Shown here piece by piece: positions 12,381-17,842 of a stretch of 64,000 bases of DNA; within the stretch, counting starts at the first letter, position 1, and each line of letters opens with the position of its first letter. The position numbers and the translations under genes were made by a program. The notes below the pieces were generated by a model, which ran no database searches, had not been told where the DNA came from, and saw nothing but the letters and a program-made list of their open reading frames with translations. Origin of the DNA: the human T2T-CHM13v2.0 reference genome, Homo sapiens; assembly GCF_009914755.1 (NCBI RefSeq), contig NC_060928.1. One strand, 5' to 3'.

Positions 12381-13065
12381 TGCTTAAAACAATTTCTTAT
12401 TACTTTTTCTACTCCAGAGTAAATAGGCCTTTATCACACCTCTTAGCCTTGTTCAGTTTTTAATAGTACTACAGACATCCTGGGTCAACCTCTTTGCCTA
12501 ATAATCTCAGGAACTTGACCTCCATACTTATGCTCCTCCATTTCAATTTGTTCCCTCACCAGATATAATATGCATTGTACTTATTCCATTTACATTATTG
12601 TTCTGGCACTGCAGTTCATTCTCATTTGGAAATCTTCTATGTCACACACCATATATATCCTTTTAAATGCTCTTCCTTCTTTTTCTCTATTTTCTAATCC
12701 TTTTACTTGTGCTAAAAACTTCTCTTCTGCTTTCATTTGCCTATAAGACATTAAAGTGTACATATTCAGGAGACAATTGATTACATATTTTTGAAATTTT
12801 GAAACCAAATCTTCAACGAAGATACAGTTTTGTGAGATGGAAGTATATAATTGGTAACTGAAGCTATAGTGGAGAAATACGAATGCTAGAGTGAATGAAA
12901 CTAATCAAAAATATAAAGCCTAAGAAATTGGAGTGATACAAGAAATTCATGGCAGTTTTTTTCAGATAGGTGCTTTTTTCATATGTGTCTTTATTTTCAA
13001 TTTTTTTTTTAATCTTTTTACACACATTTTAGGTGTACAACAATTTGGTATACACACCTATATAG

Positions 13066-13616
13066 TGTGATGGTTAATATTGAGTGTCAACTTGATTGGA
13101 TTGAAGGATGCAAAGTATTATTCCTGGATGTGTCTGTGAGGGTGCTGGCAAAGCAGATTAACATTTGAGTCAGTGGACTAGGAGTGGCAGATCCACCCTC
13201 AATCTGAGAGGGTACCATCTAATAAGCTGCCAGTGTAGCTAGGATAAAAGCAAGCAGAGGAATGTGGAAGGACTAGATTGGCTAAGTCTTCTTGGCCTCT
13301 ATCTTTCTCCCATGTTGGATGCTTCCTGCCCTTGAACATCAGACTCTAAGTTCTTCAGCTTTCAGACTCTTGGCCCTACACCAGTGGTTTGCCAGAGGCT
13401 CTCGGGCCATTGACCACAGACTGAAAACTGCACTGTTGGCTTCCCTACCTTTGAGGTTTGGGGACTCAGGCTGGCTTCACTGCTTCTCAGCTTGCAGACC
13501 ACCTATTGCGGGACATGATCTTGTGATTGTGTGAGTCAATACTCTGTAGTAAACTCCCTTTTATACATACATTTATCCTATCAGTTCTGTACCTCTAGAG
13601 AACACTGAATAACATA
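13066..13616 (+). mobile_element. MLT2A2 (HERVL) LTR, full length
   Basis: TGTGATGGTTAATATTGAGTGTCAACTTGATTGGATTGAAGGATGCAAAG...CTCTAGAGAACACTGAATAACATA, ~550 bp. Confidence 0.92.
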
Positions 13617-13621
13617 GATTT

Positions 13622-13639
13622 TGGTACCAGGAGTGGAGT
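13622..13639 (+). promoter_or_regulatory. Primer binding site for tRNA-Leu
   Basis: TGGTACCAGGAGTGGAGT, 17/18 complementary to the recalled tRNA-Leu(TAA) 3' end, 5 nt after the LTR. Confidence 0.8.
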
Positions 13640-15172
13640 GCTTCTGCAAAAATACCCTAAAATGTGGAAGTGACTTTGGAACTGGGTAACAGGCAGAGGT
13701 TGGAACAGTTTGGAGGGCTCAGAGGAAGACAGAAAAGTGCAGGAAAGTTTCAAACTTCCTAGAGACCCTGAGGGCTCAGAATACATGAAGACGTGGGAAA
13801 GTTTGGAACTTCCTAGAGATTTGTCTAATGGCTTTGACCAAAAGGCAGATAGTGGTATGGACAATAACGTCCAGGTTGAGGTAGTCTCCAGTGGAGATGA
13901 GGAACTTGTTGGGAACTGGAATAAAGGTCACTCTTGCTATGCAAAGAGACTGGCTGCATTTTTCCCCTGCCCTAGAGATCTATGGAACTTTGAACTTGAC
14001 AGAGATGATTTAGGGTATTTGGGGGAAGAAATTTCTAAGCAGCAAAGCATTCAAAAGGAAGCAGAGCATGAAAGCTTGGAAGATTTGCAGGCTGACAATA
14101 CTATAGAAAAGAAAAATCCATTTTCTGGAGAGAAATTGAAGCCTGCTGCAGAAATTTGCATAAGTACCAAGAAGCCAAATGTTAATCACCAAGACAATGG
14201 GGAAAATGTCTCCAGAGATGTCAGAGATCTTCAGGGCAGCTCCTCCCATCACAGGCCATGAGGCCAAGGATGAAACCATTGTTTTCTTGGCCAGGCCCAG
14301 CTCCCCCCTGCCTCATACTGCCTAGGGACTTGGTGCCCTACATCTCAGCTGCTCCAGCCATGGCTAAAAGGGGCCAAGGTATAGCTTAGGCCATGGCTTC
14401 AAGGGTGCAAGCACCAAGCCTTGACAGCTTTCGTGTATATTGAGCCTGCAGGTACACAGAAGTCAAGTATTGAGGTTTGGGAACCTCCACCTAGATTTCA
14501 GAGCATGTATGGAAATGCCTGGAAGTTTAGTCAGAAGTTAGCTGCAGGGGTGGGGCCCTCATGGAGAACCTCTGCTAGGGCAGTGACAAAGGAAAATGTG
14601 GGGTGGGACCCCCTACACAGAGTCCCACTGGTCACTGCCTAATGGAGCTGTGAGAAGAGGGTCACCATCCTCCAGACCCCAGAATGGTAACTCCAGTGAC
14701 AGCTTGCACGTGTACCTGCAAAAACTGCAGACACTCAACACTAGCCTACAAAAACAGCCAGGAAGGGGTTGTACCCTGCAAAGTCACAAAAGCATGGCTG
14801 GCCAAGACCATGGGAACCCACCTCTGGCACCAGTGTGACCTGGATGTGAGTCATGCAGTCAAAGGAGATCATTTTGGAGCTTTAAGATTTGAGTGCCTTG
14901 CTGGATTTCGGACTTGCATGGGGCTTGTAGCCCCTTCATTCTGGCCAATTTCTGCCATTTGGAATTGGTGTTATTTACCCAATATCTGTACTCCCATTGC
15001 TTTTGATTTACAAGCTCATAGCCAGAAGGACTTGCCTTGTTTCAGATGGGACTTTGCACTGTGGACTTTTGGGTTAATGCTGGAATCAGTTAAGATTTTG
15101 GGGGACTATTGGAAAGGCATGATTGGTTTTGAAATGTGAGGACATGAGATTTGGAAAGGGCCAAGAATGGAA
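13640..15172 (+). mobile_element. THE1C/D-int MaLR internal region with gag-like ORF remnant (13710-14261) and PPT
   Basis: aaatgtggaagtgactttggaactgggtaacaggcagaggttggaacagtttggagggctcag; peptide WESLELPRDL..CPRDLWNFEL..EISKQQSIQ; purine tract before the 3' LTR. Confidence 0.92.
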
Positions 15173-16106
15173 TGATATGGTTTGGCTCTGTGCCCCCACT
15201 CAAATTGCACCTTGAATTGTAATAATCCCTACGTGTTGTGGGAGGGTAATTGTGGTGGGAGGTGACTGAATCATGGGGGCAGGTTTTTCCTGTGCTATTG
15301 TCATCAAATGGAATAAGTCTCATGAGACCTGATGGTTTTATAAAGGGGAGTTCCCCTGCACACTCTCTTTGTTGCCTGCCACCATGTAAGATGTCCCTTT
15401 GCTCTTTCTTCATCTTCTGCCATGATTGTGAGGCTTCCCCAGCCATGTGGACCTGTGAGTCCATTAAACCTCTTTCCTTTATAAATTACCTAGCTTGAAT
15501 ATGTTTTTATTAGCAGCCCAGTGGGAGCTAATTGAATGATTGGGCAGGTTTTTCCCATGCCATTCTGGTGATAGTGAATAAGTCTCAGCCAGGTGCACTG
15601 GCTCACGCCTGTAATCCCAGCACTTTGGGAGGCTGAGGCAGGCAGCTCATGAGGTCAGGAGATCGAGACCATCCTGGCTAACACGGTGAAACCCCGTCTG
15701 TACTAAAAATACAAAAAAAAAATTAGCCGGGTATGGTGGCGGGCACCTGTAGTCCCAGCTACTCGGGAGGCTGAGGAAGGAGAATGGCGTGAACCCTGGA
15801 AGCAGAGCTTGCGGTGAGCCGAGACCACGCCACTGCACTCCAGCCTGGGGACAGAGTGAGACTCCGTCTCAAAAAAAAAAAAAAAAAGTCTCACAAGATC
15901 TGATGGTTTTATAAAGGAGAGTTCCCCTGCACAACTTCTCTTGCCTGCTGCCATTTAAGATGTCCCTATGCTCTTCCTTCATCTTTTCCGCCATGACTGT
16001 GAGGACTCCCAAGCCATGTGGAACTGAGTCCATTTAACCTCTTTCCCTGATAAATTACCCAGTCTCAGGTATATCTTTATTAGCAGCCTGAAAACCAACT
16101 AATACA
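15173..16106 (+). mobile_element. THE1C-like 3' LTR, partially tandem-duplicated (15173-15517 and 15518-16106), with an Alu inside
   Basis: TGATATGGTTTGGCTCTGTG start and ...ACTAATACA end; the segment from 'aggtttttcc' to 'ttattagcagc' occurs twice. Confidence 0.9.
15588..15885 (+). mobile_element. AluY
   Basis: AluY diagnostics; TSD aagtctca. Confidence 0.95.
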
Positions 16107-17842
16107 TATAGTGAAATGATAACTACATTCAAGCAAATTATTCTATCCATCACCTTTTATAATTACTTACTTCCCCTTAAACAAGAGTGCCTAAAAATCT
16201 ACTCTCTTAGTAAATTTTCAGTATTCAATACAATATTGTTAACTATAACTCTCATGGTCTACATTAGAGCTCTAGACCTATTCATTCTACATAGCTGCAA
16301 GTTCATAACCTTTAACCCACTTCACGTCATTCTATTTATTTCCCCTGATTTCCCCAGTAATCACTGTTCTATTCTCTGTTTGCTATGTATAAGTGAAATC
16401 ATGCAATATTTTTCTTTCTGTGTCTGGCTTATTTCTCTTAGCCTAATGTCCTCTGGGTTACCAACATGAATGTTGTGACAACATGAATGTTGTCACAAAT
16501 GGCAGTATCTCCTCCATTTTTAAGGCTGACAAGTATATATATATATAATTCATATTAATATATTATTTTCAATCCATTTATCTGTCAGTGGACACTTAGG
16601 TTGTTTTCATATCTTGAACATTATGAGTAATGCTGCAATGAACATGGGAGTAAAGCTTGTTTTACTAGGTGCTATTTGCATTTCTTTTATATCTAGCAGA
16701 AGTATTGTTGAATCATAAAGTAGTTCTATTTTTAATTGTTGGAGGAAACTCCATGTTTTCCAGAATTGCTGTACCAATTTATATTACCATCAAGAATGTA
16801 CAAGGGTTCCCTTTACTTCACAGCTTCACCAACAATGATGATCTCTTGTCTTTTTCATAATTGTCATCTTAACAGGTGTGAGGTAATATCACACTGTGGT
16901 TTCGATTTGCATTCCACTGCTAATTAGTGATGTTGAGCACCATCTTATATATCTGTTGGCCATTTGTATGTCTTCTTTGGAAAAATGTCTATTCAGGTTC
17001 TTTCCTCATTTCTTAATTAGGTTATTTGTGTTCTTTTTTCTATGGAGTTGTGTGAATTCATTATGTATTTCGGATGTTAACACCTGATCAAATATATGGT
17101 TTGCAATTCTTTTTTTCCCAATCCTTAGATTCTCTCCACTCTTCATTCTGTTGATTTTGTTTTGTTTTTGTTTTGTGTGTGTATGTGTGCAGGAGCTTTT
17201 TAGTTTTATGTAGTCCCACTTGTTTATTTTTGCTTTCGTTGCCTGAGCTTTGGGATTGCAGATACACACTCTCAAATGCTGCTGAGAAGTCAAGCAATAT
17301 GAAAGTGAAAAAAATTTTTATATTTACTAACAAAATGTCTATAAAAATTTTGACATCTATTATTGCCTGCCTCTATGGTGAAGTTCCTACTGAGAATGTG
17401 GAAGGTGTTGAAATTTAAGGTGTAGTTGAAGGAACTGGCCTAAGACAGAAGGAGTGGTATCTCATTTACTAAAACAAACAAACAAAAGTAATAAAAATAG
17501 ATGAGTCTACACTATAATTGGTTTCATGGCTTCTGTTTACACTGATGAGTGAAAGAGTGTTGAACAAAAAAACATATGAGGAGAGTGGAGAAGGTTTAAA
17601 CTTCCAGTTGACAAAAGAAGATTATGATTACGGTAAAATCCAATAGATAGCAGTGATGAACTAACACTTGAGATTAATAGTAGCAACAAAGGATGAATGG
17701 TGAATCTAACCTTGATCATGAGCATTGTCTGACAGTAGTCATCAGTCCAACTGTTGGTCAAGAGAAGGTGAACAATTTCCTCCATTCCAGCATGAATTGG
17801 GCTAGGTTTCCATGGCAAAGGTTAATAAAAAATATAATTGTG

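What the first reader, a model, noticed from the sequence alone, without database searches (positions are those of the whole stretch)
13061..16111. Chimeric ERVL/MaLR provirus: MLT2A2 5' LTR, THE1 interior and THE1 3' LTR inside one TSD, joined at the PBS
Seen: TATAG flanks both ends (13061-13065 and 16107-16111), and the host L1MA reads continuously across the site, which points to a single integration. Yet the 5' LTR is a complete MLT2A2 (HERVL), while the interior and 3' LTR are THE1. The LTR is followed by the HERVL-type spacer GATTT, then the tRNA-Leu PBS TGGTACCAGGAGTGGAGT, and THE1-int starts directly after it. Established: reverse transcription normally yields identical LTRs; plus-strand strong-stop DNA (U3-R-U5-PBS) transfers via the PBS; ERVL and MaLR both prime on tRNA-Leu and make 5-bp TSDs; MaLRs lack pol and are thought to borrow ERVL enzymes. 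Inference: a HERVL plus-strand strong-stop DNA transferred onto a THE1 minus strand in the same particle. That would be a physical fossil of HERVL/THE1 co-packaging and trans-mobilisation. I do not know whether such chimeras have been catalogued.
Basis: partly seen in the sequence, partly recalled or inferred. Interest (0 to 1): 0.88.

Follow-up and report, generated by a model that had tools for sequence, protein, structure and literature searches.

The report
Recurrent HERVL–THE1 chimeric retroelements
This fossil retroelement went into the genome as one piece with a HERV-L repeat at its front and a THE1 body and tail, and at least 21 more like it (plus mirror-image forms) suggest that THE1 was copied inside the same particles as HERV-L.

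Summary
Window 13061-16111 is one insertion flanked by TATAG, and the host L1 reads straight across it. Its parts are an MLT2A-type (HERV-L) 5' LTR, the HERV-L spacer GATTT, a tRNA-Leu(TAA) primer-binding site (PBS), a THE1-type interior and a THE1-type 3' LTR.

The architecture is recurrent. Four own-genome searches found at least 22 distinct loci where an MLT2A LTR joins a THE1 interior at the PBS; 15 were read as sequence. None of the 15 has an MLT2A 3' LTR, and 11 end in a THE1 LTR. The chimeras are scattered among ordinary THE1/MST interiors on a tree.

Mirror forms exist: three loci carry a THE1 5' LTR, a HERV-L leader and an MLT2A 3' LTR. Eight of nine elements with both ends intact (seven forward, two mirror) have 5-bp target duplications matching at 4/5 or better (control 2.8%).

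Best reading (0.7): plus-strand strong-stop DNA of one element transferred onto the minus strand of the other inside one particle. That would be a physical trace of HERV-L/THE1 co-packaging. Nine paper searches found no description of it. Family names are recalled, and no orthologues were checked.

The parts
13061..13065 (+). 5' target-site duplication TATAG
   Evidence: It is identical to 16107-16111, and uninterrupted L1 homologues have one pentamer here.
13066..13616 (+). MLT2A-type (HERV-L-type) 5' LTR, complete, starting TGTGATGG
   Evidence: It is colinear over about 540-550 nt with the 5' LTRs of two ordinary HERV-L-type elements (L034 81.0%, L037 83.9%) and with the LTRs of the other chimeras. 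BLAST found no likeness to the 3' LTR.
13617..13621 (+). 5-nt spacer GATTT, the HERV-L type
   Evidence: HERV-L 5' ends carry GATTT-like spacers, whereas 17 of 17 ordinary THE1/MST elements carry a 6-nt GTAAAT-like spacer.
13622..13639 (+). Primer-binding site TGGTACCAGGAGTGGAGT; the switch point lies within its first 15 nt
   Evidence: It matches 17 of 18 nt of the published probe complementary to the 3' end of tRNA-Leu(TAA) (PMC6049499). HERV-L copies share only the first 15 nt and then read TTC.
13640..15172 (+). THE1/MST-type interior, ending in the purine-rich tract before the 3' LTR
   Evidence: It is colinear at 74-80% with the interiors of ordinary THE1/MST elements and of the other chimeras. 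Its purine tract looks like that of ordinary elements.
15173..15519 (+). THE1-type 3' LTR, copy A (starts TGATATGG; about the last 20 nt missing)
15520..16106 (+). THE1-type 3' LTR, copy B (about the first 83 nt missing; ends CTAATACA), interrupted by an Alu
   Evidence: Copies A and B are 77% alike over 261 aligned columns, no closer to each other than to other genomic copies. They share 3 rare states against 16 and 18 private ones.
15588..15885 (+). Later Alu insertion with poly(A), flanked by AAGTCTCA (15580-15587 and 15886-15893)
   Evidence: The Alu label comes from reading the sequence and from recall.
16107..16111 (+). 3' target-site duplication TATAG

Best explanation
The element is one integrated DNA made when two different retroelement genomes, a HERV-L and a THE1, were reverse-transcribed in the same particle.

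A HERV-L plus-strand strong-stop DNA (whole MLT2A LTR, spacer GATTT, and an 18-nt copy of the tRNA-Leu primer) annealed through the shared PBS to the 3' end of a THE1 minus strand instead of to its own. Extension of both strands then gave MLT2A LTR - PBS - THE1 interior - THE1 LTR. The HERV-L integrase inserted this with a 5-bp duplication.

The same accident happened many times, and in both directions.

Shown here: the anatomy, the single integration, the recurrence, the position of the junction, and the mirror forms. Inferred: the strand-transfer step itself, co-packaging, and therefore the use of HERV-L enzymes by THE1. The extra partial 3' LTR copy is a duplication about as old as the insertion, and the Alu came later.
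For: (1) Single integration. The window element has TATAG on both sides, and the host L1 is continuous across the site.

(2) Recurrence. Junction-spanning matches occur at 22 or more distinct loci. In the 15 read as sequence, the MLT2A LTR, PBS and THE1 interior are colinear with the window element. 11 of the 15 end in a THE1-type LTR, 4 are cut short, and 0 has an MLT2A LTR downstream.

(3) Target duplications. They match at 4/5 or better in 8 of the 9 elements with both ends intact, which are 7 forward and 2 reciprocal. Offset controls gave 2.8% (n=504), binomial P=3e-12. Every duplication is different, so these are separate integrations.

(4) Junction. 14 of 15 forward chimeras have the 5-nt HERV-L spacer (8 exact GATTT, 4 with one change, 2 with two) followed by the THE1-type PBS ending GGGT and a THE1 interior. 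The switch therefore lies within the 15 nt the two families share.

(5) The interior always goes with the 3' LTR: 11 of 11 forward and 3 of 3 reciprocal. A foreign plus-strand strong-stop DNA predicts exactly this.

(6) Reciprocals. 2 of 38 sampled HERV-L 5' ends have a THE1-type LTR. A third was found with a junction query. Two of the three have duplications matching 4/5.

(7) No lineage. On a tree of 15 chimeric and 30 ordinary interiors the label needs 13 changes, against a shuffled mean of 12.8. Chimeric 5' LTRs are as close to five other MLT2A-type LTRs (median 82.3%) as to each other (80.1%). Those five are two ordinary HERV-L 5' LTRs, one LTR beside L013, and the 3' LTRs of two reciprocal chimeras.

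(8) Shared primer. The THE1 PBS equals the published 18-nt probe against the 3' end of tRNA-Leu(TAA) (PMC6049499 Methods).
Against: From recall, intermolecular plus-strand transfer is rare in orthoretroviruses, and it needs two minus strands in one particle.

Two of 18 junctions carry the other family's spacer. L055 has an MLT2A LTR with GTAAAT, and L104 has a THE1 LTR with GATTT. In these the crossover sits at the shared LTR terminus, not in the PBS.

The third reciprocal, L111, has no matching duplication, and a second spacer plus PBS-like stretch follows its 3' LTR.

L104 and L111 share the same leader-to-LTR junction. Some reciprocals may therefore be related by descent, which the simple model does not predict.

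L061 has no clear duplication (2/5).

All three reciprocals are short forms without gag-pol, so no full-length reciprocal has been seen.

Each search scored only the 40 best candidates, so counts are lower bounds and frequencies are rough.

The HERV-L identity of the reference interior rests on recall. A 1.2-kb sample taken where pol was expected in L034 showed no open frame, and Pfam found nothing in its leader ORFs. No orthologues were examined.
Confidence: 0.7

Rival explanations
1. Recombination before integration, but by another route. One version: a plus strand begun on one element's minus strand switches template at the shared LTR terminus or PBS before strong stop. Another version: two finished or partly finished linear DNAs are joined at the 15-nt shared PBS by host annealing or repair, and the product is then integrated.
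For: L055 and L104 have crossovers at the shared LTR terminus (...CTAATACA) rather than in the PBS. L103 has an internal deletion at a 5-nt microhomology, which shows that short-homology switching occurred in these elements.
Against: 14 of 15 forward junctions and 2 of 3 reciprocal junctions fit a PBS-mediated transfer directly. Host repair of two linear DNAs would not explain why the interior always goes with the 3' LTR (14 of 14). This rival still needs both DNAs in one complex, so it leads to the same biological conclusion.
Confidence: 0.15
2. A self-propagating hybrid family: one founder chimera, or a complex master locus, that kept producing copies with an MLT2A 5' LTR and a THE1 3' LTR.
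For: There are many copies with the same architecture. L104 and L111 share an internal junction.
Against: Established retroviral replication rebuilds both LTRs as U3 from the 3' LTR plus R-U5 from the 5' LTR. Progeny of a chimera would therefore carry two identical hybrid LTRs, not two unlike ones. The chimeras do not cluster on the interior tree (13 changes against a shuffled mean of 12.8, with at least 4 origins forced by well-supported branches). They include both PBS variants seen in ordinary elements. Their 5' LTRs are no closer to each other than to other MLT2A-type LTRs.
Confidence: 0.07
3. Rearrangement after integration: nested or adjacent insertions followed by deletions, ectopic recombination between a HERV-L and a THE1, or gene conversion of the 5' LTR.
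For: Mismatched LTRs in other HERV families are usually explained this way (recalled; a similar assumption appears in passages of PMC9323773).
Against: Ectopic recombination gives unlike flanking duplications, but here 8 of 9 match at 4/5 or better. The host L1 is continuous across the window site. The junction falls at the same few bases in 15 separate loci. BLAST found no homology between the two LTR types that could guide conversion.
Confidence: 0.03

Closest known systems
Ordinary full-length THE1/MST (MaLR) element
   Same: Same interior, same 18-nt tRNA-Leu(TAA) PBS, same purine tract and 3' LTR, and a 5-bp duplication.
   Different: The 5' LTR is of another family (MLT2A type, about 550 nt against about 360 nt). 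The spacer is the 5-nt GATTT rather than the 6-nt GTAAAT.
HERV-L provirus (MLT2A LTRs with HERV-L interior)
   Same: Same 5' LTR and spacer, the same first 15 nt of the PBS, TG..CA-type termini, and a 5-bp duplication.
   Different: The interior and 3' LTR are THE1-type. There is no gag-pol.
Mosaic or recombinant endogenous retroviruses made by co-packaging and template switching
   Same: Two co-packaged genomes recombine during reverse transcription. The standard model was read in passages of PMC6894440. Mosaic HERVs were read in passages of PMC4724089.
   Different: In the standard model the product has two identical LTRs (PMC6894440 passages). Here the LTRs belong to different families, which implies a foreign plus-strand strong-stop DNA rather than minus-strand copy choice. 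The partners are an autonomous element and its presumed dependent.
Proviruses with unlike LTRs from ectopic recombination (recalled from work on HERV-K; not read here)
   Same: The 5' and 3' LTRs do not match.
   Different: Those have unlike flanking duplications and LTRs of one family. Here the duplications match and the LTRs are from two families.
Ty1/Ty2 hybrid elements in yeast, and complex LTR-retrotransposon insertions in cereals attributed to template switching (recalled; not read here)
   Same: Hybrids form between related LTR retrotransposons that share replication machinery.
   Different: As recalled, those hybrids generally carry matching LTRs or a more complex order. I did not check whether junctions at the PBS with unlike LTRs are described there.

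Membership tests
Single LTR-retroelement integration | Short direct duplication of target DNA at both ends, with the host sequence continuous | tested here: met
   TATAG on both sides. The L1 reads through one pentamer in uninterrupted homologues. 8 of 9 related elements match at 4/5 or better.
Single LTR-retroelement integration | PBS next to the 5' LTR and a purine tract next to the 3' LTR | tested here: met
   The PBS lies 5 nt after the LTR. The purine-rich tract before the 3' LTR looks like that of ordinary THE1.
THE1/MaLR full-length element | THE1/MST-type LTR at both ends | tested here: not met
   The 5' LTR is MLT2A-type and shows no BLAST likeness to the 3' LTR.
THE1/MaLR full-length element | THE1-type interior and 18-nt tRNA-Leu(TAA) PBS | tested here: met
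   The PBS matches 17 of 18 nt of the published probe.
THE1/MaLR full-length element | 6-nt GTAAAT spacer between LTR and PBS | tested here: not met
   The window has GATTT. 17 of 17 ordinary elements have the 6-nt form.
HERV-L provirus | MLT2A-type LTR at both ends | tested here: not met
   The 3' LTR is THE1-type.
HERV-L provirus | HERV-L interior (leader, gag, pol) | tested here: not met
   The sequence after the PBS is THE1-type, not the leader shared by the 40 best HERV-L 5' ends.
HERV-L provirus | Subfamily identity of the LTR (MLT2A2 rather than MLT2A1 or another MLT2) | not testable with these tools
   No Dfam/Repbase library was available. Only likeness to LTRs that flank HERV-L-type leaders was shown.
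Hybrid provirus from ectopic (post-integration) recombination | Flanking duplications that do not match | tested here: not met
   5/5 match in the window element, and 4/5 or better in 8 of 9 related elements.
Mosaic ERV from minus-strand copy choice | Two identical LTRs at integration | tested here: not met
   The LTRs are from different families.

The most novel reading that the evidence does not exclude
HERV-L particles often carried a THE1/MST RNA alongside a HERV-L RNA and copied both into minus-strand DNA. Plus-strand strong-stop DNAs then crossed between them through the shared tRNA-Leu PBS.

The resulting class of unlike-LTR elements (22 or more forward loci, plus reciprocals) would be the first direct physical evidence that HERV-L mobilised the primate MaLRs.

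In the reverse direction, HERV-L deletion derivatives that had lost their purine tract could complete DNA synthesis only by borrowing a THE1 strong-stop DNA. That would explain why all three reciprocals are short forms lacking the tract. It would also explain why one of them keeps a spacer and PBS copy after its 3' LTR.
Probability: 0.5. Interest if true: 0.8.

Novelty: new variant of a known kind. Interest (0 to 1): 0.72.

Why it matters
MaLRs (THE1, MST, MLT1 and the rodent MT/ORR1) make up about 4% of the human genome (PMC10735291 passage) and have no polymerase of their own. The papers I read describe their dependence on ERV-L-type retroviruses as a requirement or a possibility, not as something shown (PMC5538554 Discussion passages).

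Elements integrated as one piece, with a HERV-L LTR at one end and a THE1 LTR at the other and the join at the shared primer site, would be a physical record that both genomes were reverse-transcribed together.

They would also show that plus-strand transfer between molecules happened repeatedly in this retrovirus group.

On the practical side, they are a source of misannotation: a THE1 interior apparently 'missing' its 5' LTR next to a 'solo' MLT2A. They also place a THE1 interior under an MLT2A promoter. A review passage (PMC11359688) says MLT2A1 and MLT2A2 are activated in early embryos.

Tried and rejected
Searches that gave nothing:
- Local BLAST of the L1 flanks against 348 kb of fetched DNA found nothing.
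- An own-genome search with the 106-nt left flank found only itself. Continuity was settled instead with homologues of the right flank.
- Pfam on four leader ORFs of the reference HERV-L-type element gave no meaningful family.
- A 1.2-kb sample where pol was expected in that element showed no open frame, so that copy is probably truncated.
The LTR comparison therefore rests on five reference LTRs, two of them from the reciprocal chimeras.

Ideas rejected:
- A defective purine tract in the forward chimeras: their tracts look like those of ordinary THE1.
- LTR copies A and B as a recent duplication: they are no closer to each other than to other copies.
- A larger family sharing the leader-to-LTR junction of L104 and L111: none of the other 38 scored places has it.

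Three older papers (Smit 1993 tried under two ids, Lauermann and Boeke 1997) are not held.

Paper searches: searches found no description of MLT2A/THE1-interior chimeras. One search, a PBS-motif search, found only the tRNA-fragment paper. No supplementary files were opened.

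
Full report
**What is in the window.** Reading 12700-16500 and fixing coordinates gives this order:

| Coordinates | Part |
|---|---|
| 13061-13065 | TATAG |
| 13066-13616 | 551-nt LTR starting TGTGATGG |
| 13617-13621 | Spacer GATTT |
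| 13622-13639 | Primer-binding site (PBS) TGGTACCAGGAGTGGAGT |
| 13640-15172 | Interior, ending in a purine-rich tract |
| 15173-15519 | LTR copy A, starting TGATATGG, without its last ~20 nt |
| 15520-16106 | LTR copy B, without its first ~83 nt, ending CTAATACA |
| 16107-16111 | TATAG |

Copy B holds an Alu with poly(A) at 15588-15885, flanked by AAGTCTCA.

Copies A and B are 77% alike over 261 aligned columns. That is no closer than either is to other genomic copies (best 83% and 79%). They share 3 rare states against 16 and 18 private ones. The duplication is therefore about as old as the insertion.

**Single integration.** The right flank has many L1 homologues in the genome. Five were fetched with 90 nt upstream. 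Three of them (L106-L108) align clearly with the window's left flank, one TATAG-like pentamer and the right flank without a break. L109 aligns weakly, and L105 is a truncated copy. The host L1 is therefore continuous, and TATAG is a true target duplication. The L1 subfamily name was not tested.

**What the parts are.** No repeat library was available, so I compared the parts with other copies in the same assembly.
- Ordinary THE1/MST-type elements (17 rows) read: LTR end ...CTAATACA, a 6-nt GTAAAT-like spacer, TGGTACCAGGAGTGGGGT, then the interior.
- Elements with the MLT2A-type LTR and a different leader, which I call HERV-L from recall, read: LTR end, GATTT, TGGTACCAGGAGTGG, then TTC and the leader (L034 and L037).
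- Of 38 sampled 5' ends of that leader, 34 have the MLT2A-type LTR end with a GATTT-like spacer.
- The window has the MLT2A-type LTR and GATTT, followed by the THE1-type PBS ending and interior. The switch therefore lies within the 15 nt the two families share.

The THE1-type PBS is identical to a published 18-nt probe against tRF-3009, the 3' end of tRNA-Leu(TAA) (PMC6049499, Methods and Introduction passages). The window copy has one mismatch to it.

**It is not unique.** Four own-genome searches with junction-spanning queries were run. Each scores only the 40 best candidates. Together they found junction-spanning matches at 22 or more distinct loci. One set of seven 75-77% matches at pericentromeric-looking places is counted as one locus. 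New loci appeared with each new query, so the true number is higher.

Fifteen loci, including the window, were read as sequence:
- All 15 have MLT2A LTR, PBS and THE1 interior colinear with the window element.
- Ten have the full interior and a THE1-type 3' LTR.
- One (L060) has an internal deletion running into the end of a THE1 LTR.
- Four are cut short.
- None has an MLT2A LTR downstream.
- Spacers: 8 exact GATTT, 4 with one change, 2 with two changes, and one (L055) with the THE1-type GTAAAT.

**Each is its own integration.** Nine elements have both ends intact: seven forward and two reciprocal. Their flanking pentamers match 5/5 twice, 4/5 six times and 2/5 once (L061). The same test at offset positions gave 4/5 or better in 2.8% of 504 comparisons, binomial P=3e-12. 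The duplications all differ from one another.

**Not a lineage.** A tree of the first 1 kb of interior was built from 15 chimeras and 30 ordinary elements. It needs 13 changes of the label, against a shuffled mean of 12.8, and well-supported branches force at least four origins. The tree is star-like with weak resolution, as expected for old repeats.

The chimeras include both PBS variants seen among ordinary elements. Their 5' LTRs are as close to five other MLT2A-type LTRs (median 82.3%) as to each other (80.1%). That reference set is small: two ordinary HERV-L 5' LTRs, one LTR beside L013, and the 3' LTRs of two reciprocal chimeras.

Established retroviral replication rebuilds both LTRs from the U3 of the 3' LTR and the R-U5 of the 5' LTR. 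A chimera therefore cannot copy its unlike LTRs forward.

**Mirror forms.** Two of the 38 sampled HERV-L 5' ends have a THE1-type LTR. A junction query found a third.

| Locus | Structure | Spacer | Flanking duplication |
|---|---|---|---|
| L103 | THE1 LTR, PBS, ~540 nt of HERV-L leader, then MLT2A LTR from about its nt 22 | GTGAAT (THE1-type) | GATGT/AATGT |
| L104 | THE1 LTR, PBS, ~600 nt of leader, then MLT2A LTR from about nt 216 | GATTT (HERV-L-type) | ACATC/GCATC |
| L111 | Like L104 | GAAAGT (6 nt) | None matching |

The leader-to-LTR join in L103 sits at a 5-nt microhomology. In L111 the 3' LTR is followed by GATTT and a PBS-like stretch.

All three lack gag-pol and the purine tract. 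L104 and L111 share the same leader-to-LTR junction. None of the other 38 scored places has it.

**Mechanism.** A product with LTR X at the 5' end and LTR Y at the 3' end needs a plus-strand strong-stop DNA copied from a different minus strand than the one that forms the body and the 3' LTR. This follows from the standard scheme of reverse transcription (passages of PMC6894440).

The prediction is: the whole foreign LTR plus its own spacer, a join in the PBS, and an interior that always matches the 3' LTR. That is what 14 of 15 forward elements and 2 of 3 reciprocal elements show. The interior matches the 3' LTR in 14 of 14.

L055 and L104 need a switch at the shared LTR terminus instead.

For the reciprocals, I infer that a HERV-L minus strand without a purine tract cannot make its own strong-stop DNA and is completed by a THE1 one. 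The spacer and PBS copy after the 3' LTR of L111 would fit a tRNA primer still attached when the plus strand reached the end. This part is conjecture.

The purine tracts of the forward chimeras look normal.

**Rivals.** Post-integration rearrangement is disfavoured by the matching duplications, the continuous L1 and the identical junction at 15 loci. A propagating hybrid family is disfavoured by replication logic and by the tree. Another pre-integration route (a template switch before strong stop, or joining of two linear DNAs) cannot be excluded, but it leads to the same conclusion: both DNAs were in one complex.

**Literature.** Nine searches were run. I read passages of:
- PMC10735291: no mention of MLT2, HERVL, chimeras or hybrids. 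It says its model leaves out recombination between repeats.
- PMC4724089: MaLR analysis is stated to be out of scope.
- PMC5538554: MaLRs are described as nonautonomous and as requiring endogenous retroviruses.
- PMC11359688, PMC6894440 and PMC9323773.

None describes these chimeras. Older subscription papers, the notes in repeat-library entries and all supplementary files were not seen, so prior description cannot be excluded.

**Limits.** Family and subfamily names are recalled, not tested. The HERV-L reference copy showed no pol where it was sampled. No other primate genome was available. Counts are lower bounds taken from top-40 lists.

Noticed in passing
window 15173-16106: The 3' LTR is about 1.8 tandem copies. 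Copy A lacks its end and copy B lacks its start. The two are as diverged from each other as unrelated copies are. None of the other chimeras read here shows this.
   Followed up: yes
window 15580-15893: An Alu with poly(A) is inserted in LTR copy B, flanked by the direct repeat AAGTCTCA.
   Followed up: partly
L111 (G000:C2:179556250-179558050), positions 1393-1418: The third reciprocal element has GATTT and a PBS-like stretch directly after its 3' MLT2A LTR, and no matching target duplication. This may be a DNA end that kept the copy of the tRNA primer.
   Followed up: partly
L104 (reverse strand) about 1040-1075 and L111 about 1030-1060: Two reciprocal elements on different chromosomes share the same HERV-L-leader-to-LTR junction but have different spacers and flanks. 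This could be common descent or a template-switch hot spot. None of the other 38 places scored has the junction.
   Followed up: partly
L056, L059, L062, L064 and ordinary loci L032, L035, L036, L039, L042, L046, L048, L050: A subset of THE1/MST-type interiors carries a longer PBS variant (roughly TGGTACCGGTAGAGTGGGG) that no longer matches the tRNA end continuously. It occurs in both chimeric and ordinary elements.
   Followed up: no
L013 (G000:C8:104689689-104692788): A nearly complete MLT2A-type LTR lies about 290 nt upstream of an ordinary full THE1 5' LTR, in the same orientation. This may be chance.
   Followed up: no
L103 positions 3870-6204: A complete ordinary THE1-type element lies 2.4 kb downstream of the reciprocal chimera, in the same orientation.
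   Followed up: no
G000 C2:89492101, C2:90248754, C2:92131592, C4:106242654, C10:38728566, C22:17131945, C24:11586364: Seven junction-spanning matches of the same length (612-622 nt) and the same identity (75-77%) look like one chimeric locus copied by segmental duplication. They were not fetched.
   Followed up: no
window 8713-20425: According to the hub's annotation, the element lies in the first intron of LINC02479, on the same strand.
   Followed up: no
HERV-L 5' ends L065-L102: The HERV-L-type PBS matches the tRNA-Leu(TAA) end for only 15 nt and then reads TTC. One copy (L079) has the full GGGGT form.
   Followed up: no
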